A stretch of 64,000 bases of DNA from the IMG/VR virus record IMGVR_UViG_3300030376_007544, positions 32,001-96,000 of that record. One strand, 5' to 3'. Under the pieces are notes generated by a model, which searched no databases, was not told where the DNA came from, and worked only from the letters and a program-made list of their open reading frames with translations. This DNA is from a virus. Its lineage: Duplodnaviria > Caudoviricetes. Shown here piece after piece: positions 8,891 to 26,191 of this stretch. The first letter of the stretch is position 1. Each line of letters starts with the position of its first letter. The translations under genes were made by a program, and so were the position numbers.

Positions 8891-8896
8891 ACTTTT

Positions 8897-9626: not shown

Positions 9627-9785
9627 ATGAACGAAAACAACGACGACCACGCTACAGAAGCTTCGCCAGTTACTGCGCCTAGACTGTCACGCTATACTTG
9701 TCATAAGTGTGATGTATCACTAGAGGCACTAACAGAGTCTGATGTTTGGTGTGGAAAAGGACATCGCATGGAGAGGATAGGCTAA
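9627..9785 (+). CDS. small Zn-ribbon protein (52 aa)
   Basis: CHKC...CGKGH; TTGACA-17-TAAGAT promoter at 9590-9618. Confidence 0.6.
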   Translation: MNENNDDHATEASPVTAPRLSRYTCHKCDVSLEALTESDVWCGKGHRMERIG

Positions 9786-9786
9786 A

Positions 9787-9930
9787 GTGGCTAGAAGAAA
9801 CGCATCGTTTGGAGCAGGAACTATCAGCAAAACCCAGCGTAAACGCAAAGGGATACACGCAAAGAGTAAGCACTCCAAACTCAAAGGTTCCAAGAACTAT
9901 AAGAAAAAGTACAGAGGACAGGGAAGATAG
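9787..9930 (+). CDS. small, highly basic protein ending KKYRGQGR (47 aa)
   Basis: GTG start two bases after the previous stop; K/R-rich. Confidence 0.6.
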   Translation: MARRNASFGAGTISKTQRKRKGIHAKSKHSKLKGSKNYKKKYRGQGR

Positions 9931-9937
9931 TTAGGCC

Positions 9938-10035
9938 CGAACAAACGTTCGCCAATGTTAAGCACGCCTAACATTTGATGTTAGCTTAACCTAACACATC
10001 GAACAAACGTTCGCCACATACCGAACAAATGTTCG
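9938..10035. promoter_or_regulatory. three LexA (SOS)-type boxes with a DtxR-like pair between them
   Basis: CGAAC-N4-GTTCG at 9938, 10000, 10022; GTTAR-N6-YTAAC at 9957 and 9980. Confidence 0.75.
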
Positions 10036-10174
10036 CCCATGTTCGTCACATTTTTGCTCGTTTTGCGAAGCCACCCGAATCCTACGGTCAACCTACGGTC
10101 AGCATAAAACAGAAAAACCCCACACCCGAAAGAAAAAGAAAAGGTGTGGGGTTAGACTGGAAAGAAAGGTACTT

Positions 10175-10438
10175 TTAAGGTAGCACCAACCTCTGTCCTA
10201 TTTGAAGATATGAACCTCCATTGAGTTCGCTTGCTTGATAGACTGCGTGTCCAGTATGACCTTCGCAGTGTTCATTTATTATGTCCCAGAGAGTGTCGCC
10301 ACTTTCAACTGTCACTTCACCGGATTGGCACTTGTAGTCAATTGCGTCATTTGCGCCCTTGACTATCCCTATTCCCAGTCCAGCAGTGATAGCAATTGCG
10401 CCTATCCCTCCAAGAGCTTTTTTAGTTAATGTGTTCAT
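10175..10438 (-). CDS. membrane-anchored LysM-domain protein, leaderless
   Basis: N-terminal TM helix; VESGDTLWDI...LQIGQRLVLP; ATG 7 nt after TAAGGT. Confidence 0.85.
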   Translation of the reverse strand: MNTLTKKALGGIGAIAITAGLGIGIVKGANDAIDYKCQSGEVTVESGDTLWDIINEHCEGHTGHAVYQASELNGGSYLQIGQRLVLP

Positions 10439-10554
10439 AGGTATAACCTTAACACACTCCATGTCACATTGCAACACTTCTCAACAAAAAATAAAAAAAT
10501 AATTTCTTAGGTAAAAGGTTGCGTTCATGTTGCAACTCTGCTAACATGGTATTC

Positions 10555-10701
10555 ATGAGTTACAGATACGACATAAAACACGACTGGTACACTGATAAGT
10601 GGAACGTCGTTGATACTCGTAACAGAGACTGCACAGTCTCCACACATAGTTCTAGGGAAGAAGCACTAGCCGAAGCGCTAAAAAAGGATAGTTCTTCTTA
10701 A
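10555..10701 (+). CDS. small hypothetical protein, leaderless
   Basis: TTGCGT-17-TAACAT, ATG 7 nt downstream. Confidence 0.65.
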   Translation: MSYRYDIKHDWYTDKWNVVDTRNRDCTVSTHSSREEALAEALKKDSSS

Positions 10702-11286
10702 CTAAGGGGGATGCTGAGGCTACCCCCCTAAATCTTAGCCCCACTTCTGGTTTCACTCATTTCCCAGAGGTGGGGCTTTCTTCGTGTACCCCCAACATTC
10801 ACCCAAAGCTCAACACGAACATATGTTCGCATCGAGGTCAGGTCAGGCCGAGCAGGTCGAGAGGCCGATGTGTCCCGATTACATCGGGGCTTTATCAGAC
10901 CTAAGCTTAGCTCGAAGCTTAGCTTGACCAGCTCGAAGCTTAGCTGGATGCAGGAAAAGTTTGCCAAAAGGTTGCATTTTGAATCGTTTTGCGCTAAACT
11001 TCAGCAAACCCTACGGTCAGCCTACGGTCAAACCTGGGAAAAATCAACAAAAGCCAACGAAAAGTTGCAATTTTGTCCAGCTTTGCAGCAGCTTAGCAGC
11101 AGCTTAACCAGCTTAGCAGCAGCTCGGATGCAGCGATTCGAGGTCAACCTCGTGAAGTCCCGACTATATCGGGACGATATGACCTCACTTATTGGCCATC
11201 TCGCACTTGCATCCATATAAGCTCGCATACCAGGAAGAAACCCCAGACTAGGGAAATGAGTAAAACCTAGTCTGGGGTTATGAACT

Positions 11287-11379
11287 TTAGTGTCCTAAAA
11301 CATTTAGGACTGCTAAAGTTAGAAATAGGATTCCGAACATCCAATACATCGGAACCATTTCTTTTGAATACCAACTCAT
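11287..11379 (-). CDS. 30-aa membrane peptide
   Basis: MSWYSKEMVPMYWMFGILFLTLAVLNVLGH; GGGAG RBS; own promoter and terminator. Confidence 0.65.
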   Translation of the reverse strand: MSWYSKEMVPMYWMFGILFLTLAVLNVLGH

Positions 11380-11459
11380 CTTTATCTCCCTTCGTTGATA
11401 CTTCATCTTATCAAACTCACAACTAATTGCAACCTTTAATTAAAATTATTTATTATTTA

Positions 11460-11732
11460 TTACCACTCACGCCAACTTCTGCCCCAACGTGGAGATGTTG
11501 ATCGTAAGTAGGTTGCGAGTTCAGGGTACTTCTCTTCTATAGCGCTAGGCAAGTAAACGTGCACTAGCAGATCAAGCGTCCTAACGAACCTACAGGGAGA
11601 ACCAAACCAAAACCTACTTCGTGGTTTCATTTCGTTCTTGATGTAGGCACGAACCCTATTGTGATCTATGTCCCAATAATCAACGCCAACTTTATCTGCG
11701 AAGATTCGTAGTCCTATGTAGTAGTTGTTCAT
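11460..11732 (-). CDS. hypothetical protein, paralogue of 27108-27389, leaderless
   Basis: Shared DYWDIDH, SRFWFGSPC, LRSTSPRWGR. Confidence 0.8.
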   Translation of the reverse strand: MNNYYIGLRIFADKVGVDYWDIDHNRVRAYIKNEMKPRSRFWFGSPCRFVRTLDLLVHVYLPSAIEEKYPELATYLRSTSPRWGRSWREW

Positions 11733-12374
11733 ATGTATGAGTATAGGTTGTCTACAACTATATTGCAAGTTTTATCTAAGAAATTGTTTGATATTATTAG
11801 CTCCACCTAACATGCCCGAATGTTAGGCTTGCTTAACATTGAGTGTAAGTTTAACATAACACAGGTCAGGTCAGGTCAGGTCGAGCAGCAACAGGCCAAA
11901 TCGAGGTCAAGATGTCCCGAATATATCGGGACTAATCGAGAGCTTAGCAGCTTAGCAGCAGCTCGAAGCTTAGCTCGATCCCAGCTCAGCCGAAGCTGGA
12001 AAACCCTACGGTCAGCCTTTTTTTGCTAAAATGTTGCAAAACGAAAGGCTTTGTGATATAATGGAATCAACTTTTGCCCATCCTAGCACAAACTTTGGCG
12101 AAGACCATCCCAAATCCAGCTCGACGCAGCAACTTTGATCGACTCGACTCAGTGAGTCCCGACTATAACGGGGGTCTACTAGGTCGATTTGACCAGCTTT
12201 GGCCCTTATCGCCACATCCCGTATACCAGGAAGAGATCCCAAATTAGATAAGGAAATAAAACTAATTTGGGATCAACTCCGTAAATTTATTGTGTCACTC
12301 ACTTCTTGAGTGTGAGGGATTTATGTTGCCACGATCCCTACTCGCCGAATCTGATTCAGATGGTTTAGTTACGC

Positions 12375-12565
12375 TTAAGCCTGAACTGTGTCGAGCCATG
12401 CCTGCGCTTCCTCGTGCGTCTTAAACCCCATTAGGATTTTTGACGCTTCTGGATAAAGCGCGTGGAAGGCTGATGGTTCATTGCTCTCAGGTCCCCATAG
12501 CCGAAGCCATCGAGCACTGTAGCGAACTACGCCTGTCTCTATATGATCACCCCATTTCCACTCAT
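12375..12565 (-). pseudogene. small gene with an apparent frameshift at its start
   Basis: The leaderless ATG at 12565 is out of frame with the ~62-codon ORF that ends at 12375. Confidence 0.35.
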
Positions 12566-12641
12566 GTATCCAGGTTATCACGAAATTTCGCAAAACCACC
12601 CGGTTTTTTAAAAAAATTTAAATTTGCCACATTATGGGAAA

Positions 12642-12787
12642 TGAGAATGATTCTCAAAAGTTTGTGAAATGTTTCACTAAGTGACCGAACATTTGTTCCC
12701 CCGAACACTTGTTCCCCCCGAACATATGTTCCCCGAACACTTGTTCGTGTTAAGCATGCCTAACATTGAGTGTTAGCTTAACATAAC
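12642..12787. promoter_or_regulatory. stacked operators: Fur-like, Rex-like, 4x LexA-like, 2x DtxR-like
   Basis: TGAGAATGATTCTCA 12642; TTGTGAAATGTTTCACTA 12662; CGAAC-N4-GTTC at 12686, 12702, 12719, 12734; GTTAR-N6-HTAAC at 12749, 12772. Confidence 0.75.
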
Positions 12788-13354
12788 AAAATAAAAAAAA
12801 TAAAAAAATTTCAAGAAAAGGTTGTTTTTTTTGAAAGGCTGCACAAAAAATCGACAGGTCAAAATCGACCTCAGCGTGTCCCGAATATATCGGGGGTCTA
12901 CCAGGTCGCTGGAAACGCTACGGTCAAGCTACGGCCAAGCTTTCGAGCTGAAAAGGTTGCGAAAGCAAAAAACTTCTGCTAAAATGAAAAGAAATCTTCA
13001 AAAGTTTAGCGAAAGCCTGGGGAAAAACAACCAAAAGCGGCAAAAAGTTGAAAAAAAGCAGCTTCGCAGCGCAGCTTCGGGTCATCCAGCAGCCACATCC
13101 CGCATAAGTCCCGACTATATCGGGGGCCTCTAAGGTCCACGTATCCTGGATCGGATCATCCTTTTCACGAGCTTCACTCAGTGTGTTCATGTGACTACTT
13201 TTTAGTCTGGATCCCGATTTCACTCAGCGTGTTCATATGACTACTTTTTATTCTGGATCCAGAATCGTATTCATGGGATTTCCCACAATGTGGTTAATTT
13301 TGAAACTTTGGTAAAAAAGTTTCGAATGTCACAGGCATTAGATAGATTGAATAC

Positions 13355-13657
13355 ATGGAAAAGAAACAAGGGAAGGAAGGTGAAAAAATGAGAACTCTTG
13401 AGAACGGAGCAACCGCTCTTGTGTGGAGTGTGCAACACAATGCTGAAGGCAGTGGGTATCGCAACTACACAGGCGTTGTTCTGGCTCATGCGCCCCATCT
13501 GATGGATCCATATGCAACATGGACTGTCGCTTCAGATGATGGGATCACGTTCTGGTGTAATGCAGGGCATTACTACTCCAGTCGTGAAGATGCACATCAA
13601 GACTTCGTAGTGCGTGCCACTAACGAAACAGACTTGATGTCTCACGCAGTAGCCTAA
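13355..13657 (+). CDS. hypothetical phage protein
   Basis: Own promoter; PYATW...GHY motif; alternative start at 13388. Confidence 0.7.
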   Translation: MEKKQGKEGEKMRTLENGATALVWSVQHNAEGSGYRNYTGVVLAHAPHLMDPYATWTVASDDGITFWCNAGHYYSSREDAHQDFVVRATNETDLMSHAVA

Positions 13658-13773
13658 AGCGAGTCAGACTCGGAGCCTGATGGGGGCTTGGCAACAGAAC
13701 CCCATCACCCCAACAACTTGATAAGGAAGGAAAAAGATCCCCCACTCCCTAAGGTGGGGGATTTTTATTTACC

Positions 13774-13875
13774 CCAGATCCAGATCCAGATCCAGATCCA
13801 GATCCGAGCCTGATCCTGATCCGAGTCAGATCCAGATCCAGATCCAGATTGGAGTCAGATCCAGATCCAGATCCA
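13774..13875. repeat. (CCAGAT)n microsatellite containing 13 GATC
   Basis: Read directly from sequence. Confidence 0.9.
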
Positions 13876-14165
13876 TCCCCGAAACTCTTTCAAACTGGGC
13901 AACTTTGGAAATCGCTACGGTCAAGCTCCGGTCAAACTTTTTGCATCCTTCTGATCCGCCCTCGATCCAACCCTGCAACCTGGAATACCCCCGATTATAT
14001 CGGGACTTTCTGAGAAGTCGAGGGTCTAAAGCTGCATCCGAGCTGCATCCGAGCTGGAGCTTAGCTACTGCGTGAGTCCCGTTATATTCGGGACTATACG
14101 ATAGGTTTTGACCTGACCTGACCTGCTGCTCGACCTGACCTGACCTGATGACCATCCCCCGAACT

Positions 14166-14324
14166 AAGTTACTCAGTGGTAACTTGTGTTAGGCACGCTT
14201 AACACTAAATGTTAGGTGAACTTAACATATGTTAGGTATGCTTAACATTCAATGTTAGGCACGCTTAACATACTCCCCGAATAATGTTAGCTTCACCTAA
14301 CACTCAATGTTAGGGCTACTTAAC
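14166..14324. repeat. one GTTAC-N6-GTAAC plus six GTTAG-N6-YTAAC boxes in three 23-bp pairs
   Basis: 14188/14211, 14231/14254, 14286/14309. Confidence 0.85.
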
Positions 14325-14392
14325 GAAATAAATAATCTAAAGAATTCATCAAAAACACCCGGAGTGTCACACATAGATGATAGATTGAACTT

Positions 14393-14704
14393 ATGAGTAG
14401 TTTGGAGGTGAAAGAAAATATGAGTCATGTACTTCTGATTGAAGGCGCTGATGGCGATTTAGTTGATGCACATACAGTGTGTAGCGACAGTTGTCACCGG
14501 AGCCTAGCAGTAGAGTTAGACGTGCCCTATGGAGGGTGGTTCGGTTGTATCGAACTGGAGTTTAACGACTACTGTCAGTCTTGTGGGACGCTGATTCATG
14601 GGGTTGAAGGACCCCATGAGTTCCATAACACTGTATGTGAAGATACCACTTGTGAACTTTGTTCTGATGAACGTAAGTTGCAACTGGAACTCGCTACAGT
14701 TTAA
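14393..14704 (+). CDS. Cys/His-rich putative metal-binding protein
   Basis: CSDSC, CQSC, CxxxxCxxC; alternative start at 14420 after GGAGG. Confidence 0.7.
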   Translation: MSSLEVKENMSHVLLIEGADGDLVDAHTVCSDSCHRSLAVELDVPYGGWFGCIELEFNDYCQSCGTLIHGVEGPHEFHNTVCEDTTCELCSDERKLQLELATV

Positions 14705-15514
14705 GGCTTCAATCCAATCCTGAATAAGATTCGGACTCACACCCCTAGAGTTGGCACCAGAATAGGGGCAACACAAACAACAACACATTCAACGAAACAT
14801 TGAAATACAACTAAACAACTCATGGATATTCCCCGATTTACTTAGGTGAGTCGGGGAACTTTCCTGGAATCCGAGAAAGCTCGGAATTGCTACGGTCAAG
14901 TTATTCTGGTCAAACTGCAGCCAATCATCCGAACTCAAGCAGCCAATCGATTCGAACTCAAAAAGCCCCGTATATATCGGGACTAAATAAGAAGCTGAAT
15001 GAAATCGTGAGCTTAGCTGCTGCTGCGAGCTGAGCTTAGCCGCTAAAAAGTGACGAAAAGTGACGAAAGTGACGAAAAGTTCGAAACTTTTTTACCATCC
15101 TATCAAAAGTTTTTGAAAATTGCAACTTTTTGCCGAAAAACCAGGGAGCTTAGCCGCTGAATCAGCCGCTACACGCTGCAAATCGAAGTCGATTCAGCAG
15201 GTAAGTCCCGTAATAATCGGGACATATTAAGGTTGGCCTGACCTGACCTGCCATCCCAGCAGCCATCCAAGTGTTAGGTATGCTTAACACGAAATGTTAG
15301 GTACGCTTAACATTAGAACCGAACAAGTGTTCGTTTATGTCATTTATGTTACAGAAAAAGAAATTTAAGAAAATCTTGCGTAAAACTTGCAATTGTCACA
15401 CCCACCACCTAAGATGGTGTTTACATAGATGAGGCACCTGCCAAGTAGGTGAAGAGTCTGGGTAAGAGTCCCAGAAGGTGCCACATTGTAAACACCTATA
15501 GGAAAGAAAAACAT

Positions 15515-15760
15515 ATGCTTACACGTATGCATTTCGACACTGTAGCGAATAGCTTAAGGCTTAGGCTTGAAGCACTTATTGACAACCTCAATAGAGCGCC
15601 TCAAATCCACATGGAAGCCGTTAAGGTATGGCACGCAATCGCTTGCGATATGCGCACCATGTTCGCTGGAAGTAACCCTAGATTTGATGAAGAAAAGTTT
15701 AACGACGCTTCTGGAATCACTTCAGTGGAATACTTTCTCCCCAGTGTCAAAACCGACTAA
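15515..15760 (+). CDS. hypothetical phage protein
   Basis: LTRxHF...NPRFDxxKF motif; promoter and structured leader upstream. Confidence 0.7.
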   Translation: MLTRMHFDTVANSLRLRLEALIDNLNRAPQIHMEAVKVWHAIACDMRTMFAGSNPRFDEEKFNDASGITSVEYFLPSVKTD

Positions 15761-16067
15761 GAGTCGGAGTCCGGCGGAACTCGGCAACAGAATCCGCCCA
15801 AATAAATAGCCAACCTAAACAAATACTCCGCTGAAAGGGCGGGGTATTTGCCTGGAATCGAGAAAGTTCGAAAACCCTACGGTCAAGCTACGGTCAAGCT
15901 TTTGAGCTGGTCGGCAGGTCAAAACTCAAGTCGATCCCAATCAGTCCCGAATATAACTGGACTATCTAACCGTTCTTTTGTTTAATTCGAGCTTAAGGAC
16001 CACCCAGGCAAAGGTTCCCGACTTGTCTGACGGGAACCTTTTTTAATCCGGTATTTAGTTTGGAACC

Positions 16068-16160
16068 TTATCGCTTTTTGGGCGGTATACAACTTTTCAG
16101 TATGTAAAACCACACCATAGCAAATCCTACTGGACCTACTAGAGCAAATACAATTTCCAT
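16068..16160 (-). CDS. 30-aa membrane peptide
   Basis: MEIVFALVGPVGFAMVWFYILKSCIPPKKR; own promoter and terminator. Confidence 0.6.
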   Translation of the reverse strand: MEIVFALVGPVGFAMVWFYILKSCIPPKKR

Positions 16161-16302
16161 GTATTTCTTTCTGAGTGATTAAGTACTTCTTAACCTCTCA
16201 CCTTCAATACTAGGTGCAAATATCATAAATTGCAACCTTAAAACAAAAAAAATAAAAAATAACCCCTGATCCGAAGATCAAGGGCTACTTTTGTTATTAG
16301 TT

Positions 16303-16566
16303 TTAGCCTATTCCTGCGAACTTATTAAATTCAGCCTCTTCAGCGATTGTTAGTTCTCTAGGTTGTTGGTTGTGGATTTCTAACCCCCACATTGTTCGGT
16401 GCATATGCTCAATCTCTTTAGCCTGTCTGTAGTCTTTACAAAACAGTTGTAGTATTTGACAATCAGTTTGATCGCCAGTTGGAGATTGAAACCATAAGTG
16501 TAGAGCATTATCTCTTACTTCGGTTCCGCATAAAGCTCCCTTTGTTGTTATTGTTGGTTCTATCAT
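16303..16566 (-). CDS. hypothetical protein
   Basis: Promoter, RBS and terminator bracket the ORF. Confidence 0.7.
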   Translation of the reverse strand: MIEPTITTKGALCGTEVRDNALHLWFQSPTGDQTDCQILQLFCKDYRQAKEIEHMHRTMWGLEIHNQQPRELTIAEEAEFNKFAGIG

Positions 16567-16706
16567 GTATTCCCATCTAATCCGTTAGTACTTCTAACTT
16601 CATAACTTAATCGTATCATGACCCGAAACAGATTGCAACCCCAATAGCAAAAAATTATCTAAAATAATTCTTGCTTTTGTCACACACCTATGTTAAGGTA
16701 ATAAAC

Positions 16707-16859
16707 ATGATAAACAAACTAAAAGACAACGGACATAAGTGGAAGGCACTTGATGGAGATGTTCGGTGTGTTGTGTGTGATGCACGGCCATCGGGAGCAT
16801 CTGCCAAAAAGTTGTGCATACGCTTTGATCTGGAGAGAATGCAAGGCTCTAAAATATGA
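16707..16859 (+). CDS. small Cys/His protein, leaderless
   Basis: TTGCTT-17-TAAGGT then ATG; H...CxxC...C. Confidence 0.6.
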   Translation: MINKLKDNGHKWKALDGDVRCVVCDARPSGASAKKLCIRFDLERMQGSKI

Positions 16860-16957
16860 TTACAATTCTAGTCACATTTGGAGTTGGAGTGATAGTTGGA
16901 ATACTTATCGCAACTTACTTAGAGCATGGGGCAATACTTTTGCCCGATGACGAGTAG
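16856..16957 (+). CDS. 33-aa membrane peptide
   Basis: ATGA overlap with the upstream stop; MITILVTFGVGVIVGILIATYL... Confidence 0.6.
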   Translation: MITILVTFGVGVIVGILIATYLEHGAILLPDDE

Positions 16958-16989
16958 CAAACTCTACGGTCAGACTATTTCGCAAAAAG

Positions 16990-17207
16990 ATTGAGTGTCC
17001 TGACGGGTACATAAGGACCAACGGCAGTTGGCGGTATTGTTGGGGTGTGGTAGGAATACTGCACTAAAGCGACACACTCTAGGGAATCGAGCCTACTTTC
17101 GGGGACAGATAGCAATATGTCCAGTCCGATAGGGCTAGCCGTACCAAGCGGTTGAGTACTCCTTAATCCCTAACCCCACCTTCGTGCTGAGGGTGGGGTA
17201 TTCTTTT
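16990..17207 (+). ncRNA. candidate structured RNA
   Basis: No ORF, GC-richer, several stems, ends in an intrinsic terminator. Confidence 0.35.
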
Positions 17208-17229
17208 ACCCCACCCCCTACGGTCAGCA

Positions 17230-17481
17230 CTACCGTCGGTTGTAGCGCCTTCGGTTAAACGCCCGACATGTACGGCAGTTAGTCGCCAACTTCTCTTCGC
17301 CCTGATAGACGTAAGTGAATTGCTCCACTTTCAACCATTGACGACAAGTGCGACATATGTACATCTCGCCCTTCGCAGCTCGTTTAATGGCTTCAAGATC
17401 AGTGTGGTCGTGGTTGTCTTCCATGACACTGGCACGATCCATTCTTGCCTTTAACTTAGTCGCTTGAAAACGATCTTTCAT
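17230..17481 (-). CDS. Zn-finger protein
   Basis: Two CRTC motifs; GGAGGTG RBS. Confidence 0.7.
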   Translation of the reverse strand: MKDRFQATKLKARMDRASVMEDNHDHTDLEAIKRAAKGEMYICRTCRQWLKVEQFTYVYQGEEKLATNCRTCRAFNRRRYNRR

Positions 17482-17678
17482 AATTCACCTCCTTAGGTAA
17501 TTTGTCTTACACTACATATAGGCACCAAAGTCGTAAAAAGCGGACATAAAAATAAAAATAATTTATTTTGCTTAAAGGGTTGCATTCGGGCCACAAAGAT
17601 GCTACGCTGGTAATTACCAAGTTGGAAGTACCAATTTGGCTCAAGTCGGAAGTACTGACTTGATTAAGGAGATATTCG

Positions 17679-17822
17679 ATGCAAAGAGAATTGAACTGCA
17701 AATGTGTTAGATGTGACAAATTGTACACAACTAGCAAACTAGCAGGAATAGATCGCAAAGGTTTCTGCATTAACTGTTGGCAACACCAACGAAATATATG
17801 GAGACTCGTAAGATCAACATAA
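17679..17822 (+). CDS. 47-aa Zn-finger protein
   Basis: CVRC...CINC; AAGGAG RBS. Confidence 0.65.
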   Translation: MQRELNCKCVRCDKLYTTSKLAGIDRKGFCINCWQHQRNIWRLVRST

Positions 17823-18084
17823 ACATAAACTAAAACATAAAGTTTCGTGAAGAAGTTTTCTCATTTTCCTTCTTCATGAAACATTCCCAAAAAGACCCAC
17901 ACTTTTTCATTTTCTTTCGAGTGTGGGTCTTTTTCTGTCCAGCTACATAATACAAAATCAAAAAAATACTAAGAGTTGTATTTATATCGGGACTTTCTTA
18001 CTTACCCTTCCTTCTATTACACCTCTATGGTGTCCCTATGGTGTCCCTACCCAGGCAGAAGGGGAGCCGAAGCCCCCCTCCAAA

Positions 18085-18279
18085 TTAAGACGCTTTTTTA
18101 GCGTTGAGTTTTTTGAAGTAAGGAGTGACATCATCAACCACTTTTTCACCGTAGTGAATTTCAGTGGCGATTACCATGTCTCCACAGTCCCTTATTTCTT
18201 GGGCTTTTTCTTCGAGCTCATATTCACATACGATTTCCGAAGTGCCTTCGTTATAAGCAATTAATAAGAATTCTCTCAT
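18085..18279 (-). CDS. hypothetical protein
   Basis: RBS, promoter and terminator bracket the ORF. Confidence 0.6.
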   Translation of the reverse strand: MREFLLIAYNEGTSEIVCEYELEEKAQEIRDCGDMVIATEIHYGEKVVDDVTPYFKKLNAKKAS

Positions 18280-18730
18280 TGTTTTCTTTCTATCTGATTG
18301 AGACTCTCTCAACCCGATAACTTAACTCTAACAGGGTTTGAGAAAAAACACAACCTTTTTTCAAAAAAAAATAAAATAATTTTTTCCTCTATTTTGTTAG
18401 GTATGCTTAACATCAAATGTTAGCTACGCCTAACACTTTTACTGGTCGAGTGGCCTGAAATTGAAAAATCAAGCTGACTTTGTGAAACTTTTCACAAACT
18501 ATCGAGGAGTTTGTCGATATTTGGCCTCAAAAAGTCCCGATTATATCGGGGGCCTCTGAGGTCGAAAACTCTACGGTCAGCTCACGGTCAGCTTGCCCGC
18601 CCACCCGTAAAGTCCCGTATATATCGGGGCTTAAAGACCTCGAAACTCGAACGGCCACTCAAAAGCTCGTATACCAGGCGAAATCCACCGCACTCATAAT
18701 GCGGTGGAAGCCTCCTTCGGTTAAGAAGTT

Positions 18731-19111
18731 TTACCGTCTTGGTTGTGTAACTTTGACGGAAGAAACTTCTTTGATGTTGATCGCTTTACCAACAAGATCG
18801 CTATCTAGCCACCCTGCTTCAACCGCACCGTCAATAAGTTTCATCTCACCGACTCGCTTGGTAACACGTTGGTGTTGCCCTTGCGGAAGAATCGCTTTCA
18901 GAACATCGTTGTCAATAGATCGTCTGTTTTGATTCACTATTGCAACTTTCGTTCCGTCTGCGAGGGTTACGCTTTCAACTTCTAACGCTCGGAAAGCAAG
19001 TTCTGCTTCCTCAACCGCTTCCCTTGCTTCTGCAAGAGCGCTCCGTGCTTCCACGACTCGCTGTGCGGTTAGTTCGCTGATCTTGCGATCATTCACTAAT
19101 AAAGTATCCAT
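18731..19111 (-). CDS. hypothetical protein, paralogue of 25023-25406
   Basis: Near-identical VESVTLADGTKVAIV...LPQGQHQRVTKRVG. Confidence 0.85.
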   Translation of the reverse strand: MDTLLVNDRKISELTAQRVVEARSALAEAREAVEEAELAFRALEVESVTLADGTKVAIVNQNRRSIDNDVLKAILPQGQHQRVTKRVGEMKLIDGAVEAGWLDSDLVGKAINIKEVSSVKVTQPRR

Positions 19112-19656
19112 GTCGGACCCTTTCTCTAATTCAGAAGCCTATCTGGGACTCTCACCCTGACTCTTCACCTAATGGCTAGACTCCTGTTTTCTTTGATATA
19201 TCCAGGTTACCATCGTTGTGAGACAAAACCACCCGGTTTTTCAAAAAAATTTCAAATAATTTTTTTCGTAACATAAATGACATATTTGTTAAGTTCGCCT
19301 AACAGGCCATGTTCACGCTTGCGAACAGATTATGTTAAGTGCACCTAACAAACGATGTTAAGCAGAGCTAACAAATAAAAAAATAAAAAAAATAAAAAAA
19401 ACTTGACAAAAGGTTGTTTTTGTGAAAGCAGCGTGCAGGTCAAAATCGAGGTCAGTATGTCCCGATTATTACGGGACTCTCTTCCTTCTATTAAGCCTCT
19501 ATGGTGTCCCTACCGCATGACCTGCAGCAGCGCTGACCAGTACCCGCCCAGGAAGAAGCCCTAGCAGGAAAATGAGTGAAACCTGCTAGGGCTTTCGGAC
19601 ATCGCATCAGTAGTTAGCAAAACTAGGTTACTAATCAGTAGTGCGATCCTCCGATT

Positions 19657-19794
19657 TTATGAGGAGAGATGTTTCGCTAGTTTGGGGTGCTCCCTTAGCG
19701 TCTTCTCTCTTACTTCACGCTCATGATGCCTGTGCATCGTTTTGGCGAGCGTAGCGTATAAGAGCGCTCCTATTATGTAAAGTGCTAATGTCAT
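19657..19794 (-). CDS. 45-aa membrane-anchored peptide
   Basis: MTLALYIIGALLYATLAK...; GAAAGG RBS; own promoter. Confidence 0.6.
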   Translation of the reverse strand: MTLALYIIGALLYATLAKTMHRHHEREVREKTLREHPKLAKHLSS

Positions 19795-20016
19795 TGTTTA
19801 CCTTTCGTTTTAACGACAAGTACCACCGTATCAAAGATTCAACTACATTGCAACACCGAAAAGCTAAAAAATTAAATAATTATTTTTACGCTAAATACTT
19901 GCAATTGTCTCACGGGCCCTGTAGCATGGAATGTATAAAGAAAAGCGAGTAGTCCGCCGTAAGGACTGGTTCGAGTGAAAGCCTCGAAGGACTGCTCCCA
20001 AGTAGAAAGGTAAAGC

Positions 20017-20352
20017 ATGAAACTAATCACTGCTGATCAACGTAAACGGCTTCTGGCAAACCACGAAGCCAATCTCGAAGGAGAAGGAGGGATCGACCAC
20101 AAACCTGTAGTGAAAATATTCACGGCAGGGGCAGGGGCGACATGGTTGCTTACAGAGATGGACGAAGATGGAATCTTCTTCGGCCTATGTGATCTTGGTC
20201 TGGGGTTTCCAGAACTAGGTTATGTCTCTCAAAGTGAATTTGATTCACTTCCTGCAAATATGTTCCTCGAACGTGATGCATGGTTTACGGCTACGAAAAC
20301 CCTTAGCGAGTACGCTTCGGAAGCCCGTGGCCTGCGACGAATCGCTGCTTAA
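20017..20352 (+). CDS. DUF2958-family protein
   Basis: PVVKIF...ATWLLTE...FGLCDLGLGFPELGYVS...ERD. Confidence 0.85.
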   Translation: MKLITADQRKRLLANHEANLEGEGGIDHKPVVKIFTAGAGATWLLTEMDEDGIFFGLCDLGLGFPELGYVSQSEFDSLPANMFLERDAWFTATKTLSEYASEARGLRRIAA

Positions 20353-20523
20353 TCGGATGCCTCCGGCCTTCTGGTCGGGGGTATTTCCCTGGGTGGCCAT
20401 AAATAAAAATCGACTACCCGTGAAGTCCCGATATAGTCGGGGCATCCTGACCTCGACCTGACCTGACCTGACCAACCAGGAAAAATCCCCCAACACTTTC
20501 GTGCTGAGGGATGAACCTACACG

Positions 20524-20658
20524 TTATCCGTGACAGAGATCATGCATGTGGCGGAGATCTTCGTCCCAATCCCACATCATCTCCATAAGGTCTTCCTTAC
20601 TCATGAGTGGTTCTGCTTCGACCCACTCTCCGTCTTCATTTCTGGTCCATTCAGTCAT
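20524..20658 (-). CDS. 44-aa acidic, Trp-rich peptide
   Basis: GGAG RBS; own promoter and terminator. Confidence 0.6.
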   Translation of the reverse strand: MTEWTRNEDGEWVEAEPLMSKEDLMEMMWDWDEDLRHMHDLCHG

Positions 20659-20992
20659 TTTATCTCCGATCTGAATCTACAAGCTTCCACTTTGAAGGCC
20701 TGATATATCCAGATTACCATGACCACTTCATAATTGCAACCCCAAATAAAAATTAATTAATATTTTTAGCAGCCGTTGAAAATAGCAGCCACTGAAAATG
20801 CAGCAGCAGGTCAGGTCGAGTGCAGGTCAGATCAAACACAGGTCAGGTCTGGTCAGGTCTGGTCACCCCGTAAAGCCCCGATTTATACGGGGCTAAATAA
20901 GTAAGACCACTCAGGATTTCTCCCCCTCACTCTAGGCCACCCGTAGGTGGCGAGGCCCGTTGGTCTACGGGGTGGTCTACTTACTTCGACAA

Positions 20993-21142
20993 TTAGACGA
21001 TTTCGATTTCGAATTCGCCGTTGTCGTACTTCTTGTCGCATCCGTTTCCTCGAAAGCTTCCACAGAAGACTAATCCTTCTTCGGTTGCTATCGCATCGAG
21101 TGACGAGCAGAAGATTCCACAATTATCACATTTTACTGGCAT
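20993..21142 (-). CDS. small Zn-finger protein
   Basis: CDNC...C...C; GAAAGGA RBS. Confidence 0.65.
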   Translation of the reverse strand: MPVKCDNCGIFCSSLDAIATEEGLVFCGSFRGNGCDKKYDNGEFEIEIV

Positions 21143-21392
21143 ACTGAATTCCTTTCGGTAGTTAATTATTTCAGTACTTCCAGGATACCACCGTTTGACC
21201 AGCATTGCAACATCAAATGCAAAAAAAAAGAATTTTAATTTCTTTGCAAAAACCGGGTGGTTTTGTCTCATAGTCGTGGTATCGTTCTATTTGTTGGTAA
21301 AGTACCGACATTACATACTAGCCGTAATTCTCGAATGAGTGGAAAGCCCCTGACAGTAGAAGCCTGTAGGTTCGAGTGGGAAAGGAATAGAA

Positions 21393-21761
21393 ATGTTTAC
21401 ACGAACAGATAGTGTTTGTATAGATATTAGTCAAGACGGACAAGTGCCTGTTCTAGGTTACGCTTATTCGTTCTCGAAAGCTCGTGACGAGTGGTTTGGC
21501 TACGTCGCTGTCAGAGAGGGTATGCTCTCTTCTGAAATGCGATACGTAGTTAAACAAATGCACCGTATCACGAAGTACGGAGAGGACGTATGGGAAGTAA
21601 TCGAAGGAACTACTGTCGAAGGTACCGATCCTGTAGAATCAGGAATACGGAACAACCGACAAAGTGCACTCGTTACACTGTCGAAATTGTCTTTAGATTT
21701 ATTTCGGGGTAACGACTATGTTGATTACGGAACCGTAATGAACATCCCACCACTTGGCTAA
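21393..21761 (+). CDS. hypothetical protein
   Basis: RBS, promoter and terminator. Confidence 0.7.
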   Translation: MFTRTDSVCIDISQDGQVPVLGYAYSFSKARDEWFGYVAVREGMLSSEMRYVVKQMHRITKYGEDVWEVIEGTTVEGTDPVESGIRNNRQSALVTLSKLSLDLFRGNDYVDYGTVMNIPPLG

Positions 21762-21977
21762 CCGAAGGGAATCCACCGAACTAAACACTCGGTGGATTTT
21801 GCCTGGTATGCGAGATTTTGTCAATTTCTGACCAGCAGGTCAGGTCATGCAGCAGGTCAGGTCAGGTCGAAGGTCGAGTAGTCCCGTATCTATCGGGACT
21901 CTTCTCCTTCTATTAGACTGCTATGGTGTCCCTATGGCGTACCTACGCTATGCAGCTCGCCCCAACCCCAACCAGGC

Positions 21978-22251
21978 GAAAAGCCCACCGAACTTCGGTG
22001 GATCGGTTCTTCACTCTCTACTTGCGAAGGGTATCTTGTTTGCCATTTAGGTTCGCCCTCCACCTTGCAAGGTTTTTGAGGAGTCCGCACCGTACCTTTC
22101 GGTTCTTTTGATGGTTTCCGTTTCCACTTCTGGTAGGTTTTTTGGTAAAAAGAACCTCTTTCCACGAAGTTCGGTGGGCCCTTAGTTGCAACCCAACCGA
22201 ATGGATATTCAGTTGTCAATTCGGGGTTTCCCCCTGCCACCCTTTCGGGCT
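21978..22251 (-). ncRNA. candidate structured ncRNA, about 275 nt
   Basis: TTGCTT-17-TAAGAT promoter; GNRA-capped stems; terminator; only an 11-codon ORF has an RBS. Confidence 0.55.
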
Positions 22252-22647
22252 ACGCCCATCTTAACATAAGGGTGAGACAAAAGCAACCTTTGTCCAACAA
22301 TTTCTTAAATAATTTTTTATTCCCAGTAGCGGCAAAATAGCGGCAAAATAGCAGCGAAAATCTGTCGTTTTTGAAAGTTTTTGACAAAAAACGGGAGACC
22401 AGCGGGCAGGCCAGTAGAAAATTTGGCAAAACTAATCAAAAATGACAGTTTTTGCTCAGCTCAGGCAGAGCTAAAAGGAGCAAAAGATGAAGGAGGTCAG
22501 GTCAAAGTTTACCTGAGGTCTAATAGCCCCGACTATATCGGGACCCGGTTAGGTATGCTTAACTCTTTTTGTTAGGTTGGCTTAACATCACTCTAAAAGG
22601 ACATGCAGAAACCCCGACCCTTTCGGGCCGGAGTTCGCTGCTGGGAT

Positions 22648-22866
22648 TTAGATGGGGAATTGTTCTCCGTATTGAAACTCTCGAACAACTATGACCATTT
22701 TTCCGCAACTATGGCAGTGATCATTTTCCCAATACTTAGAGCCACAAGAACATCGTGTACAACCTTCTTTGGCTATTCTGTTACCGAGTAGTTCATCTTG
22801 GGTAAACATTTGCAGTTGGCCCTCAAGTTCTACTCGTACTGTATCTTTTGTTAGTTCTTTTAACAT
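22648..22866 (-). CDS. small Zn-ribbon protein
   Basis: CSCGSKYWE...CHSC. Confidence 0.7.
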   Translation of the reverse strand: MLKELTKDTVRVELEGQLQMFTQDELLGNRIAKEGCTRCSCGSKYWENDHCHSCGKMVIVVREFQYGEQFPI

Positions 22867-22957
22867 CTTTTGTCTATTCCTAACTTCGCTCGGTACTTCC
22901 TTGCGATAACTCCATTATACACCGTCTACAGTAAATTGCAAGTCTTTAGGTAAGATT

Positions 22958-23488
22958 TTACAGAGTTAAGTTCTGTAGTTCTCCGTTATCCATCATCTCA
23001 AATAAGATCGTTAATGACTTACTTTGCCTCTCTTGAGTGTGTTTACCTTGATCTACTTTGAATGACCAGCGTGGGTCCTTCTTCGCTTCCTCTAAACCTT
23101 TGTTACTGAAAGGTTCACCAGTGTAGTGGTAGACGCTAGTAATTGTTGGTTTACGTTCTTTAGAACTCCAGAGCTCGTTTAGGCAGTCACATTCATGATC
23201 ACCAAACTCTCCTACTAATGCTCCGATATGCTCCAGATCACAAGTACTTAAAAGATCAGTCTGTACTACCAGATGATCTAATAGTTCACTTCCCTCAAAA
23301 ATGGTAAGAGAAGGAGACTCTGTAGACACAACTAAGTCTACTGCTGTAGCCATGTCTAGTTGGTCGTGGATAGGCATAACTTCTGCCCACTTGTATCCAT
23401 CTTCTTCGTGTATGTCAAGAACGAGAACAAGCGAGTCGCCATTGACGACCCGCAAGTCTCCTCTCGCTAAAGTTCTATTAGCACCCAT
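22958..23488 (-). CDS. hypothetical protein, possibly PemK-like fold
   Basis: RGDLR...LVLVL...VMPI pattern; GGAGG RBS. Confidence 0.55.
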   Translation of the reverse strand: MGANRTLARGDLRVVNGDSLVLVLDIHEEDGYKWAEVMPIHDQLDMATAVDLVVSTESPSLTIFEGSELLDHLVVQTDLLSTCDLEHIGALVGEFGDHECDCLNELWSSKERKPTITSVYHYTGEPFSNKGLEEAKKDPRWSFKVDQGKHTQERQSKSLTILFEMMDNGELQNLTL

Positions 23489-23586
23489 GTACGAGATTAC
23501 CTCCTATGAATGCAAACAGAAAGACTGCTACGGCAAGTATTATAGAGACACCTATGCGTCTCCTGAAGTAAATAGTATCCCAATCT

Positions 23587-24776: not shown

Positions 24777-24777
24777 A

Positions 24778-25912: not shown

Positions 25913-26191
25913 TTCCACCACAGTCCTGAACATGACTCAAAACTGTTCACCCAAAACCAGACATATATTTTCGGAGACAAAACCGAAACAAAAAAAAGAT
26001 AGGACTTCCCCTGCGCTTTGTTGAACTCCAGCAAACAGCAGCGAAAGCAGCAGCAGGTCAGGTCAGGCCAAATCTGGTCAAAATCAAAAGAAGGGTGAGA
26101 TAGTCCAGTTTCTTTCGGGACTTCCTTAGTGCTATATGAGCTCAATGGTGTCCCTATGGTATCCCTACGGTTGGCAAGACCAGCAACCAGG

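What the first reader, a model, noticed from the sequence alone, without database searches (positions are those of the whole stretch)
10872..22544. 19-bp GTCCCG-N7-CGGGRC palindrome bracketing single-gene cassettes
Seen: about 19 copies with fixed arms and a variable AT-rich 7-bp core. They usually come in pairs around a non-coding spacer (10872/11157, 11914/12156, 12878/13108, 13988/14076, 14965/15205, 18534/18612) and are flanked by (CAGGT)n runs. Between pairs sit self-contained promoter-gene-terminator units in either orientation. Known: tyrosine-recombinase core sites are inverted arms around a 6-8 bp spacer. Inference: either recombination sites of an integron-like cassette array or sites for a dimeric phage DNA-organising protein. 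No recombinase is present in this window.
Basis: partly seen in the sequence, partly recalled or inferred. Interest (0 to 1): 0.8.

Follow-up and report, generated by a model that had tools for sequence, protein, structure and literature searches.

The report
Palindromes bounding swappable phage gene cassettes
A 19-bp palindrome repeated about 19 times in one region of a marine phage marks the edges of small gene units that related phages have swapped, lost, gained or flipped, probably by ordinary recombination between the repeats and not by an integron-type enzyme.

Summary
There are 18 copies of [G/C][T/C]CCCG-N7-CGGG[A/G][C/G] at window 10872-22544. A diverged copy lies at 26103 and a half-site near 17972. 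None occurs elsewhere in the 128-kb phage contig (0.01 to 1.6 expected by chance).

The palindrome (PAL) is conserved in three related marine phage lineages. In those lineages the genes between copies are shuffled, inverted, present or absent. Inter-PAL segments are the exchanged units:
- A gene cassette in the window is a gene-free spacer in relative L078.
- An 880-bp cassette is absent from L078.
- A 448-bp cassette sits in an otherwise 78-bp PAL-pair spacer in co-occurring, roughly 99.3-99.8%-identical variants.
- Several L078 PALs are chimeric: left and right flanks match different window PALs.
- 11 of 18 block edges lie within 50 nt of a PAL (p about 0.003).

The integron analogy fails on mechanism:
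- There is no tyrosine, serine or Y1 recombinase in the contig.
- Cassettes carry their own promoters and lie in both orientations.
- Arms are 6 bp and cores differ between sites.
- The one recent insertion lies between two CTACGGTCAGC-type units, not in a PAL core.

Arms show no covariation and the hairpins are weak, so the DNA sequence is what is conserved. The phage encodes RecA. My best reading is a boundary linker like the T4 PeSL elements, probably also a protein-binding site. Earlier notes from this scan on the same stretch flagged the cassette grammar and the polar CTACGGTCA motif.

The parts
10872..10890 (.). PAL 1 (GTCCCGATTACATCGGGGC). Left member of a pair with 11157. (AGGTC)n lies upstream.
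11157..11175 (.). PAL 2. Right member of the pair. Its right flank reappears next to a different PAL in L078 (1697).
11914..11932 (.). PAL 3. (CAGGT)4 lies upstream. Left member of a pair with 12156. The spacer holds TTGCAA-N17-TATAAT on the + strand.
12156..12174 (.). PAL 4 (right arm CGGGGG). Its left flank is joined to the right flank of PAL 2 in L078.
12878..12896 (.). PAL 5. PAL plus the following CTACGGTCA doublet (57 bp) is 96% identical to L078 2464-2520. Homology ends at the left edge of the PAL and after the doublet.
13108..13126 (.). PAL 6. Left boundary of the gene-13388 cassette, which is absent from L078.
13988..14006 (.). PAL 7 (CCCCCG left arm). Right boundary of the gene-13388 cassette. 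Forms a pair with 14076 (88 bp).
14076..14094 (.). PAL 8. Followed by (GACCT)n, six GTTAGG..CTTAAC boxes and the promoter of the Zn-ribbon-like gene 14420-14704. A block edge with L078 lies inside it.
14965..14983 (.). PAL 9. Lies 3' of gene 14420. Forms a pair with 15205. A 14965-like PAL patch replaces the PAL at L078 1697 (gene-conversion-like).
15205..15223 (.). PAL 10. Followed by (GACCT)n and the operators and promoter of gene 15515.
15944..15962 (.). PAL 11 (GTCCCG..CTGGAC). Lies 184 nt 3' of gene 15515. The L066 homologue, although inverted, has the same arm variant 180 nt 3' of the gene.
18534..18552 (.). PAL 12. Left member of the 78-bp pair that is an empty cassette site in the window.
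18571..18592 (+). CTACGGTCAGC|TCACGGTCAGC doublet. A 448-bp cassette (promoter, 77-aa ORF, terminator) is inserted exactly between the two units in variants L070, L072 and L075.
18612..18630 (.). PAL 13. Right member of the 78-bp pair. Its core differs (AATATAT) in the cassette-bearing variants.
19459..19477 (.). PAL 14. Followed by the CCTTCTAT..CTATGGTGTCCCTA composite.
20425..20443 (.). PAL 15. Homology with L078 ends inside or at the end of this PAL. Left boundary of the g20524 cassette, which is a gene-free spacer in L078.
20875..20893 (.). PAL 16 (GCCCCG..CGGGGC). Right boundary of the g20524 cassette. Homology with L078 resumes about 9 nt before it.
21881..21899 (.). PAL 17. (CAGGT)n lies upstream and the CCTTCTAT..CTATGGTGTCCCTATGG composite downstream.
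22526..22544 (.). PAL 18. Followed by two GTTAGG..CTTAAC boxes.
26103..26121 (.). It has the same grammar and its orthologue is L078 14202.
11460..11732 (-). PAL-flanked unit encoding a conserved 90-aa protein. The unit is inverted relative to its neighbour 10546-10701 when compared with L060 and L066.

Best explanation
The palindrome is the conserved boundary element ('linker') of a hyperplastic region of small early-type genes. The region belongs to a lineage of marine phages of about 128 kb whose host is inferred to be actinobacterial.

Each exchangeable unit lies between two PALs. A unit is either a promoter-ORF-terminator cassette in either orientation, or a gene-free spacer holding a + strand promoter-like element and CTACGGTCA units.

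The same 19 bp, plus a weak CTCA-N3-A / T-N3-TGAG extension and AGGTC runs, recurs at every boundary and is its own reverse complement. Copies can therefore pair in either orientation. Recombination between them then replaces, deletes, inserts or inverts units and makes chimeric PALs. The recombination could be phage RecA-dependent homologous or microhomology exchange, gene conversion, or template switching, within one genome or between co-infecting relatives.

Shown: the confinement and conservation of PAL, the shuffled units, the junctions at PALs, the absence of a known site-specific recombinase, and the absence of selection for base pairing.

Inferred: that exchange is homology-driven, and that PAL is kept as a double-stranded DNA sequence because a dimeric protein, not identified, binds it (for example as an insulator or roadblock between neighbouring transcription units). 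Recombination would then be a by-product, as proposed for T4 PeSLs.
For: 1. PAL is real and confined. There are 18 to 19 copies in about 15 kb and none elsewhere in 128 kb.

2. It is conserved in relatives whose SNF2 helicase is 78-85% identical, while the surrounding spacers differ. L060 has 3 copies in the 4 kb available, L066/L067 has 11, and L078 has 17. It is absent from more distant relatives L064, L065 and L059.

3. Units are shuffled between the window and L066. Gene 11460 and gene 15515 are inverted. The Zn-ribbon-like gene is moved relative to 16303/16707. Many genes are lineage-specific.

4. Inter-PAL replacement. The window has PAL20425-[g20524 cassette]-PAL20875; L078 has PAL8767-[gene-free spacer]-PAL9018. 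Homology runs up to the PALs on both outer sides.

5. The gene-13388 cassette between PAL13108 and PAL13988 is absent from L078.

6. Chimeric PALs:
- L078 1697 has the left flank of window PAL 12156 (22/25) and the right flank of PAL 11157 (18/25).
- L078 8767 has the left flank of PAL 20425 (25/25) with a core and right flank like PAL 10872.
- L078 2464 has the PAL and right flank of 12878 (24/25) with a new left flank.

7. Of 18 block edges between the window and L078, 11 lie within 50 nt of a PAL and 4 lie inside one. Of noncoding positions, 27% lie that close. Randomisation gives p about 0.003.

8. Variants that are about 99.3-99.8% identical and co-occur in the same samples carry or lack a 448-bp cassette inside the 18534/18612 PAL pair.

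9. No tyrosine, serine or Y1 recombinase was found. A phage RecA is present.

10. There is no covariation in the arms: 484 of 500 shuffles score at least as high. Eleven of 39 distinct sites are unpaired at positions 5-15, and single-strand hairpins are weak, from -0.6 to -8.5 kcal/mol. The selection is therefore on sequence.

11. Precedent: PeSL elements in T4-type phages (PMC2839356; PMC4122927).
Against: - No PAL-binding protein was identified. The best-conserved array protein (90 aa) also occurs in phages without PALs and has no recognisable fold.
- Ends of BLAST alignments are biased towards conserved islands such as PAL. The edge statistic therefore overstates the link.
- Other repeats are junctions too. 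The CTACGGTCA doublet is the insertion point of the one recent event and the end of homology at 12934.
- Nineteen base pairs is short for efficient RecA exchange.
- The + strand excess of T.G over C.A at positions 2/18 (16 against 3) hints at a strand-specific single-stranded form that this model does not explain.
- The 77-aa cassette was seen in only one genomic context in 22 contigs, so movement of a cassette between sites is not shown.
Confidence: 0.55

Rival explanations
1. PAL, alone or together with the CTACGGTCA doublets, is the attachment site of a true site-specific cassette-exchange system. An unrecognised enzyme would cut in or beside the 7-bp core, giving excision, integration and inversion of units.
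For: - Junctions fall inside PALs. At L078 8767 the switch lies between the left arm and the third core base.
- PAL-flanked unit 11460 is inverted.
- A precise 448-bp insertion with no target duplication lies between two CTACGGTCAGC-type units.
- All 15 CTACGGTCA copies are on the + strand.
- There is a + strand T.G excess in the PAL arms.
- Identical cores recur in subsets of sites.
Against: - No tyrosine, serine or Y1-HUH recombinase is found in the contig.
- Arms are 6 bp, against 9-13 bp in lox, FRT or dif (my own knowledge).
- Most cores differ, which would block strand exchange by known tyrosine recombinases.
- Gene-conversion-like patches and junctions 30-50 nt away from PALs fit homology-driven exchange better.
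- The contig is only 87% complete, so an enzyme could be missing from it.
Confidence: 0.15
2. PAL is only an operator, insulator or roadblock site for a phage or host dimeric DNA-binding protein. The comparison is with the repeated intergenic repressor sites of phiC31 and L5, or the KorB sites of plasmid RK2. It would play no particular part in recombination: junctions look PAL-associated only because PALs are the conserved islands in fast-changing spacers.
For: - Sequence is conserved without covariation, and half-sites vary independently.
- PALs sit at the outer edges of transcription units, beyond the terminators.
- The core is AT-rich and variable, as expected for an uncontacted spacer.
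- Two ParB_N-domain proteins are encoded elsewhere in the genome.
- Alignment ends are biased towards conserved islands.
Against: - Chimeric PALs and exact inter-PAL replacements with homologous outer flanks are real adjacency changes, not alignment artefacts.
- No binding protein is identified.
- PALs do not overlap the gene promoters.
Confidence: 0.2
3. PAL acts as an RNA or single-stranded DNA hairpin, for example as a terminator, a processing or stability element, or a site bound by an antiterminator-like protein.
For: - It can form a 6-7-bp GC stem with a 7-nt AU-rich loop.
- The scan lists some copies as terminator-like.
- The top strand is more stable in 30 of 49 sites, and T.G outnumbers C.A on the + strand.
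Against: - There is no covariation.
- 8 of 11 L066 sites and window 15944 and 26103 carry a C.T or A.G mismatch next to the loop.
- Single-strand stabilities range from -0.6 to -8.5 kcal/mol.
- Units already have longer canonical terminators.
- PALs lie outside the terminators and are read in both senses relative to the neighbouring genes.
- No Rfam family matches.
Confidence: 0.05
4. PAL pairs with their spacers are selfish miniature mobile elements, of the REP/BIME or MITE type, that spread in the phage genome.
For: - They are paired short palindromes around mosaic spacers built from a few recurring motifs (GCTTAGC, CTACGGTCA, -35-like boxes).
- Sub-families share flanks.
Against: - There is no Y1 (RAYT-type) transposase.
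- Copies are confined to one region and not dispersed.
- No target-site duplications were seen.
- IMG/VR holds no other contig with several copies outside this phage group.
- Copies in bacterial genomes are single, chance-like hits.
Confidence: 0.05

Closest known systems
PeSL (promoter-early stem-loop) cassettes of T4-type phages (PMC2839356, PMC4122927)
   Same: - A short conserved motif is repeated many times in a hyperplastic region rich in small ORFan genes.
- Insertions, deletions and replacements between close relatives have their junctions at the repeats.
- No dedicated recombinase is involved, and exchange is attributed to recombination between the repeats.
   Different: - A PeSL is itself a sigma-70-like promoter plus a terminator stem-loop. 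PAL is neither: promoters and terminators are separate modules inside the unit.
- PAL is a 19-bp palindrome with an AT-rich core, often paired around gene-free spacers, and is accompanied by AGGTC microsatellites and polar CTACGGTCA units.
- Units lie in both orientations.
- Mini-circles, shown for PeSLs, could not be tested here.
Integron attC / gene cassette arrays
   Same: - It is an array of single-gene units separated by imperfect palindromes.
- Presence or absence of single units differs between close relatives.
   Different: - There is no IntI.
- Cassettes carry their own promoters and terminators and lie in both orientations.
- PAL is 19 bp, without the R''/L''-L'/R' layout or the GTTRRRY core.
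- PALs bracket units on both sides.
Repeated intergenic repressor sites of actinophages: phiC31 conserved inverted repeats and L5 'stoperators' (from my own knowledge, not checked in a paper here)
   Same: - Many near-identical sites of 13-17 bp lie in intergenic regions of an actinophage genome.
- They are conserved as DNA sequence.
   Different: - Those sites are bound by a known repressor of a temperate phage and are spread over the early and late arms.
- Here no binding protein and no integrase are known.
- Here the sites are confined to one region and coincide with rearrangement junctions.
REP / BIME elements of enterobacteria
   Same: - They are short extragenic palindromes, often in pairs separated by mosaic linkers built from a small set of motifs.
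   Different: - There is no RAYT transposase.
- The setting is a phage, not a chromosome.
- The copies are clustered, not dispersed.
Core sites of tyrosine recombinases (loxP, FRT, dif)
   Same: - They have inverted arms around a spacer of 6-8 bp.
   Different: - Arms are 6 bp, not 11-13.
- The spacer is not conserved between copies.
- No recombinase gene was found.

Membership tests
Integron (attC cassette array) | An adjacent IntI-type tyrosine recombinase | tested here: not met
   PF00589 has no match at E<=1 in the 128-kb contig. The contig is estimated 87% complete, so absence is not absolute.
Integron (attC cassette array) | Promoterless cassettes, all in one orientation, read from a common Pc promoter | tested here: not met
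   Units have their own TTGCAA-type promoters and terminators and lie on both strands.
Integron (attC cassette array) | An attC of 57-141 bp with R''-L''/L'-R' boxes and a GTTRRRY core at the cassette's 3' end | tested here: not met
   PAL is 19 bp, GTCCCG-N7-CGGGAC, and lies at both ends of the units.
PeSL-type shuffling linkers (T4-type phages) | Many copies of one short motif in a hyperplastic region of small accessory genes | tested here: met
   19 copies in about 15 kb of small ORFan units, and none elsewhere in the genome.
PeSL-type shuffling linkers (T4-type phages) | Junctions of insertions, deletions and replacements between relatives lie in the motif | tested here: met
   Chimeric PALs, inter-PAL replacement, and 11 of 18 block edges within 50 nt of a PAL, p about 0.003. 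One recent insertion lies at a CTACGGTCA doublet instead.
PeSL-type shuffling linkers (T4-type phages) | The motif is a composite of an early promoter and a terminator stem-loop | tested here: not met
   PAL contains no -35/-10 pair. Its hairpin is weak and often mismatched, and the units have separate promoters and terminators.
PeSL-type shuffling linkers (T4-type phages) | Mini-circles formed by exchange between neighbouring copies | not testable with these tools
   No read data are available.
Tyrosine-recombinase core site (lox/FRT/dif type) | Inverted arms of about 11-13 bp, and an overlap region of 6-8 bp that is identical in the recombining partners | tested here: not met
   Arms are 6 bp with only a weak flank extension. 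There are about 13 different cores among the 18 window sites.
Operator or stoperator-like sites of a phage repressor | A conserved short DNA site repeated in intergenic regions | tested here: met
Operator or stoperator-like sites of a phage repressor | Bound by a phage-encoded repressor | not testable with these tools
   No candidate was confirmed. The HTH_3 search gave only a weak hit at E 0.04. Two ParB_N proteins exist.
REP/BIME | An associated RAYT (Y1 transposase) | tested here: not met
   PF01797 has no match.
Structured RNA hairpin element | Base pairing kept through compensatory changes | tested here: not met
   The covariation score is 0.081 against a shuffled mean of 0.101, and 484 of 500 shuffles score at least as high. 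The pair at positions 5-15 is broken in 11 of 39 distinct sites.

The most novel reading that the evidence does not exclude
PAL, together with the strictly + strand CTACGGTCA doublets, forms the attachment sites of a previously unknown, integrase-independent cassette-exchange machinery in phages. It would be a 'phage integron' run by an unrecognised enzyme, possibly acting on a strand-specific single-stranded form. It would capture, excise and invert promoter-bearing early or anti-defence gene cassettes.
Probability: 0.15. Interest if true: 0.9.

Novelty: new variant of a known kind. Interest (0 to 1): 0.62.

Why it matters
Accessory 'ORFan' regions of large lytic phages are where host-takeover and anti-defence genes turn over. 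How single genes move in and out of them is documented in few systems; the T4 PeSLs are the one checked here (PMC2839356, PMC4122927).

This case offers a second, sequence-unrelated example in an uncultured marine phage lineage. Its boundary element is sharply defined, and cassette-bearing and empty alleles coexist in the same ocean samples.

That makes the process directly testable with existing metagenomic reads. It also gives a simple marker (PAL pairs) for finding exchangeable early-gene units in this phage group. If a dedicated enzyme or binding protein exists, it would be a new DNA-recognition system.

Tried and rejected
- **Known RNA families.** An Rfam scan of 7500-27500 found nothing near any family's threshold.
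- **Known phage genomes.** Megablast of the region against 50,697 phage records found no match.
- **PAL arrays in other viral contigs.** An IMG/VR pattern scan gave 52 contigs, all with single, chance-level hits.
- **Host clue or host operator.** A scan of one genome per prokaryotic species gave single hits across unrelated phyla and no enrichment in actinobacteria.
- **Recombinases.** Phage_integrase, Resolvase and Y1_Tnp gave no match.
- **The conserved 90-aa array protein as PAL binder.**
  - It belongs to a family of about 174 clusters with no Pfam domain.
  - The AlphaFold model is helical with mean pLDDT 74. Foldseek found no match, and the best structural Z was only 5.0.
  - Phages with 59-62% identical homologues have no PAL or comparable palindrome, so the link was dropped.
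- **A replacement palindrome in PAL-less relatives.** None was found in L064, L065 or L059.
- **Site orientation.** An orientation assigned from all positions gave 41 of 49 sites on one strand. This did not hold when orientation was inferred from the flanks alone (30 of 49, p 0.15), because the flanks are themselves pseudo-palindromic. Only the T.G-over-C.A excess on the + strand and the arm asymmetry (40 against 17 canonical arms) survive.
- **Looping phase of PAL pairs.** Spacings of 230-285 bp are near whole helical turns, but 78 and 88 bp, and the L066 spacings, are not. The idea was not pursued.
- **Whole records of the relatives.** They are not held in the genome store.

Full report
**1. 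The observation**

The pattern GTCCCG-N7-CGGGRC matches 11 sites in the window, against 0.01 expected from dinucleotide-preserving shuffles. Allowing GYCCCG and up to two mismatches gives 20 rows against 1.64 expected. Eighteen of them, with at most one mismatch, lie at 10872-22544.

The window is bases 32001-96000 of a 128,360-bp IMG/VR viral contig. All exact matches in that contig lie in this stretch, and the backwards control pattern gives none.

Site 26103 (GTCCAGTTTCTTTCGGGAC) has the same surroundings as the others:
- an upstream (CAGGT)n run;
- a downstream ATGGTGTCCCTATGG motif (the CTATGGTGTCCCTATGG composite of the other sites);
- an ACCAGGAAGA-hairpin.

It has an orthologue in a relative (L078 14202), so the family has 19 members. 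A half-site lies near 17972.

**2. Setting**

The contig is a tailed phage. It encodes:
- a family A DNA polymerase about 43% identical to those of Streptomyces phages;
- baseplate J and tail-fibre proteins;
- an SNF2 helicase.

The PAL region, about 7.7-27 kb of the window, lies between the helicase and a block of conserved genes. It is packed with small ORFs, nearly all without family matches. The exceptions are DUF2958 at 20017-20352 and a weak HNH/endonuclease VII-like Zn-ribbon protein at 17230-17481.

Several other repeats are also confined to this region:
- CTACGGTCA: 15 of 15 copies, all on the + strand;
- GCTTAGC: 14 of 14;
- GTTARS-N4-SYTAAC boxes phased at 23 bp: 27 of 28;
- GAAC-N4-GTTC boxes: 9 of 10.

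Earlier notes of this scan on the same stretch had flagged these repeats and a 'modular cassette' grammar. I used them as leads only.

The grammar I read from the sequence is:

PAL - (GACCT)n - operator-like boxes - promoter - ORF - terminator - CCTGG motif - CTACGGTCA - (AGGTC)n - PAL

This holds on either strand.

**3. Relatives**

No GenBank phage matches the region. No other IMG/VR contig carries several PALs.

Through homologues of the helicase and of the DUF2958 protein I fetched metagenomic contigs from ENA, JGI, Tara and Logan assemblies:

| Loci | Relation to the window | PAL copies |
|---|---|---|
| L070-L077 | 99.3-99.98% identical | all copies retained in the part of the array each contig covers |
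| L078, L079 | array DNA 86-93% identical | 17 in L078 |
| L060-L062 | helicase 85% identical; contigs stop 1.4-4 kb past the helicase | 3 in the 4 kb available in L060 |
| L063, L066-L069 | helicase 78% identical; 99.5-99.7% identical to each other, so one phage | 11 in L066 and L067 |
| L064, L065, L059 | more distant | none |

(PAL counts)

The low-complexity runs beside the PALs differ between lineages: AGGTC in the window, and CGGCTCGTC or GCAGGCTG types in L066. The PAL sequence itself is kept. The more distant relatives have no PAL and no substitute palindrome.

**4. Units are exchanged, and PALs are where**

*Window against L066, protein level.*
- Neighbours 10546(+) and 11460(-) correspond to L066 4961(+) and 5506(+). 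The 11460 unit is therefore inverted. It is flanked by PALs in the window, L078 and L060.
- Gene 15515(+) corresponds to L066 11231(-). In both phages a GTCCCG..CTGGAC-type PAL lies 180-184 nt 3' of the gene, so the PAL travels with the unit.
- The Zn-ribbon-like gene 14420 has moved relative to 16303/16707.
- Many genes are lineage-specific.

*Window against L078, DNA level.*
- The segment between PAL20425 and PAL20875 is a gene cassette in the window (g20524, with its promoter and hairpin). In L078 it is a gene-free promoter spacer between PAL8767 and PAL9018. Homology runs up to 'GTCCCGAT' on the left and resumes 9 nt before the right PAL.
- The gene-13388 cassette between PAL13108 and PAL13988 is missing in L078. 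There, one PAL pair (2464/2713) stands for two window pairs.
- L078 PAL1697 joins the left flank of window PAL12156 to the right flank of PAL11157. It carries a patch of about 25 bp identical to PAL14965, as expected from gene conversion among copies.
- L078 PAL8767 joins the left flank of PAL20425 to a core and right flank like PAL10872.
- Blocks 15387-15993 and 16003-16261 have changed places.

Of 18 block edges, 11 lie within 50 nt of a PAL and four lie inside one. Of noncoding positions, 27% lie that close. Randomisation gives p about 0.003. Alignment ends are drawn to conserved islands, so this number is an upper bound on the association. The adjacency changes listed above do not depend on it.

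**5. A recent event**

Variants L070, L075 and L072 carry a 448-bp insertion in the otherwise 78-bp spacer between PAL18534 and PAL18612. It consists of a promoter, a 77-aa ORF, a terminator, a CCTGGTAT motif and a half-PAL.
- It lies exactly between the two tandem units CTACGGTCAGC and TCACGGTCAGC, with no target duplication.
- The cassette is absent from the rest of the window's genome.
- The PAL to its right has another core, and the next 40 nt differ. The imported tract therefore runs past that PAL.
- Both alleles were assembled from the same runs, ERR868422 and ERR599349.
- In 22 contigs the cassette was found only in this context.

PAL pairs therefore do bracket an occupied-or-empty site. 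The clean left junction, however, is at the CTACGGTCA doublet and not in a PAL core. Homology between window PAL12878 and L078 2464 likewise ends just after such a doublet.

**6. What kind of element PAL is**

*Alignment.* I aligned 45 copies from four lineages. C3, C4, G6, C14, G16 and G17 are invariant. The core is AT-rich but variable.

*Pairing.* Counting the six arm pairs gives no covariation: the score is 0.081 against 0.101 in shuffles, and 484 of 500 shuffles score at least as high.
- Pair 5-15 is broken in 11 of 39 distinct sites. These are the GTCCAG/CTGGAC variants, which dominate in L066.
- Pair 1-19 is broken in 6.
- As single-stranded DNA the hairpins range from -0.6 to -8.5 kcal/mol.

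The conserved thing is therefore the DNA sequence, not a hairpin or cruciform. This argues against a terminator, a processing site or a structure-specific target. It fits recognition of duplex DNA by a protein.

*Two asymmetries remain unexplained.*
- When sites are oriented by their flanks only, one arm is canonical in 40 of 49 sites and the other in 17 of 49 (Fisher p 4e-6).
- On the + strand, T.G (16) far outnumbers C.A (3) at pair 2-18.

A claim of strong genome-strand polarity for whole sites did not survive the flank-only control.

**7. Enzymes and binders**

Present or absent in the 128-kb contig, which is estimated 87% complete:
- No match for Phage_integrase, Resolvase or Y1_Tnp.
- The phage encodes a RecA.
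- It has HNH nucleases.
- It has a ParB_N - PAPS-reductase - ParB_N - HNH cluster.

The most conserved array protein is 90 aa (11460-11732), with a paralogue at 27117-27389. It occurs in all PAL-bearing lineages. It also occurs, at 59-62% identity, in phages without PALs, and it has no recognisable fold. No PAL binder can be named.

**8. Interpretation**

The closest documented system is the PeSL of T4-type phages. PeSLs are short conserved regulatory cassettes in hyperplastic regions, and recombination between them accounts for insertions, deletions and replacements between close relatives (PMC2839356; PMC4122927).

PAL behaves like a PeSL in distribution and in its relation to junctions. It is not a promoter-terminator composite, and it is unrelated in sequence.

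It fails every defining feature of an integron attC array that could be tested, and those of a lox/FRT/dif-type core site.

I therefore read PAL as a boundary linker of exchangeable early-gene units. It is most likely also a protein-binding site, and its repeated, self-complementary copies are the places where RecA-type, microhomology or template-switch exchange reshuffles the units. A hidden site-specific system remains possible at about 15%.

**9. Limits**
- All relatives are metagenomic assemblies, and several break inside the array.
- No reads, transcripts or proteins could be examined.

Noticed in passing
window 9157-18592: CTACGGTCA occurs 15 times, always on the + strand whatever the gene orientation, often as tandem 11-bp doublets. 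One doublet (18571-18592) is the exact insertion point of a 448-bp cassette in near-identical variants. Homology with L078 also ends just after the doublet at 12918-12934.
   Followed up: partly
window 8897-9096, 14188-14324, 15273-15311, 18396-18434, 19288-19372, 22548-22586: There are arrays of GTTARS-N4-SYTAAC pseudo-palindromes at a strict 23-bp phase upstream of promoters, on either strand. They resemble DtxR/IdeR-type boxes. L066 has them upstream of the same Zn-ribbon-like gene.
   Followed up: no
window 9939-10034, 10817, 12687-12746, 15321; L066 about 9850-9885: Clusters of CGAAC-N4-GTTCG boxes (Gram-positive/actinobacterial LexA type) lie in gene-free DNA, up to four in a row.
   Followed up: no
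window 7848-7995: Five copies of AAGTTAC-N6-GTAACTT lie at roughly 30-40-bp intervals immediately after the SNF2 helicase gene. Two TTTGTGAAAACTTTCACAAAC (Rex-like) boxes lie at 8849-8892.
   Followed up: no
window 17990-18050, 19478-19535, 21900-21960, 26122-26170; L066 9679, 12372, 13704, 14507, 18437: A conserved composite follows a subset of PALs: CCTTCTAT..CTATGGTGTCCCTATGG, then ACCAGGMRAA plus a hairpin. It is conserved across lineages and could be a small RNA or another binding array.
   Followed up: no
window 10740-10785(-), 11240-11280, 12235-12275, 19556-19600: Terminator-like hairpins have variable stems but a conserved loop (GGAAATGAGTRAAAC), preceded by ACCAGGAAGA. Stem variation with a fixed loop suggests recognition of the loop.
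   Followed up: no
window 15440-15482 and 19140-19180(-); L060 13545-13585; L066 5520-5560: A conserved 5'-UTR element (AGGTGARNGNNTNNGGTRARAGTCCNRA) lies upstream of unrelated small genes. In L060 and L066 it precedes the 90-aa gene; in the window that gene has a near-leaderless promoter instead.
   Followed up: no
window 16960-17220: A stretch of about 250 bp has no plausible ORF and ends in a strong terminator (17173-17199). It is conserved at about 86% in L078 and has no Rfam match. It may be a non-coding RNA gene.
   Followed up: no
window 13770-13870: A (CAGATC)n microsatellite varies in length between variants that are 99% or more identical (L070, L071).
   Followed up: partly
G000:C1:7000-10400 (L083 1030-4406), outside the window: There is a gene cluster of ParB_N, PAPS-reductase-like, ParB_N and HNH, with a MazG gene next to it. 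It looks like a DNA-modification or IbrA/IbrB-like module. A phage RecA lies at G000 20547-21332.
   Followed up: partly
L084, L089, L104, L105, L123, L136, L139, L149, L150, L152, L158, L162 (Cloacimonadota MAG contigs): The 18-mer GTCCCGANTATATCGGGR recurs on many contigs of several Cloacimonadota MAGs. It may be a dispersed repeat of their own. A Saccharicrinis contig (L160) has six matches, five of them in a row 159 bp apart.
   Followed up: no
P0013, P0020, P0021 (helicase homologues): Some relatives' SNF2 helicases are about 970-985 aa and carry a LAGLIDADG (PF14528) insertion, apparently an intein, that the window's gene lacks.
   Followed up: no
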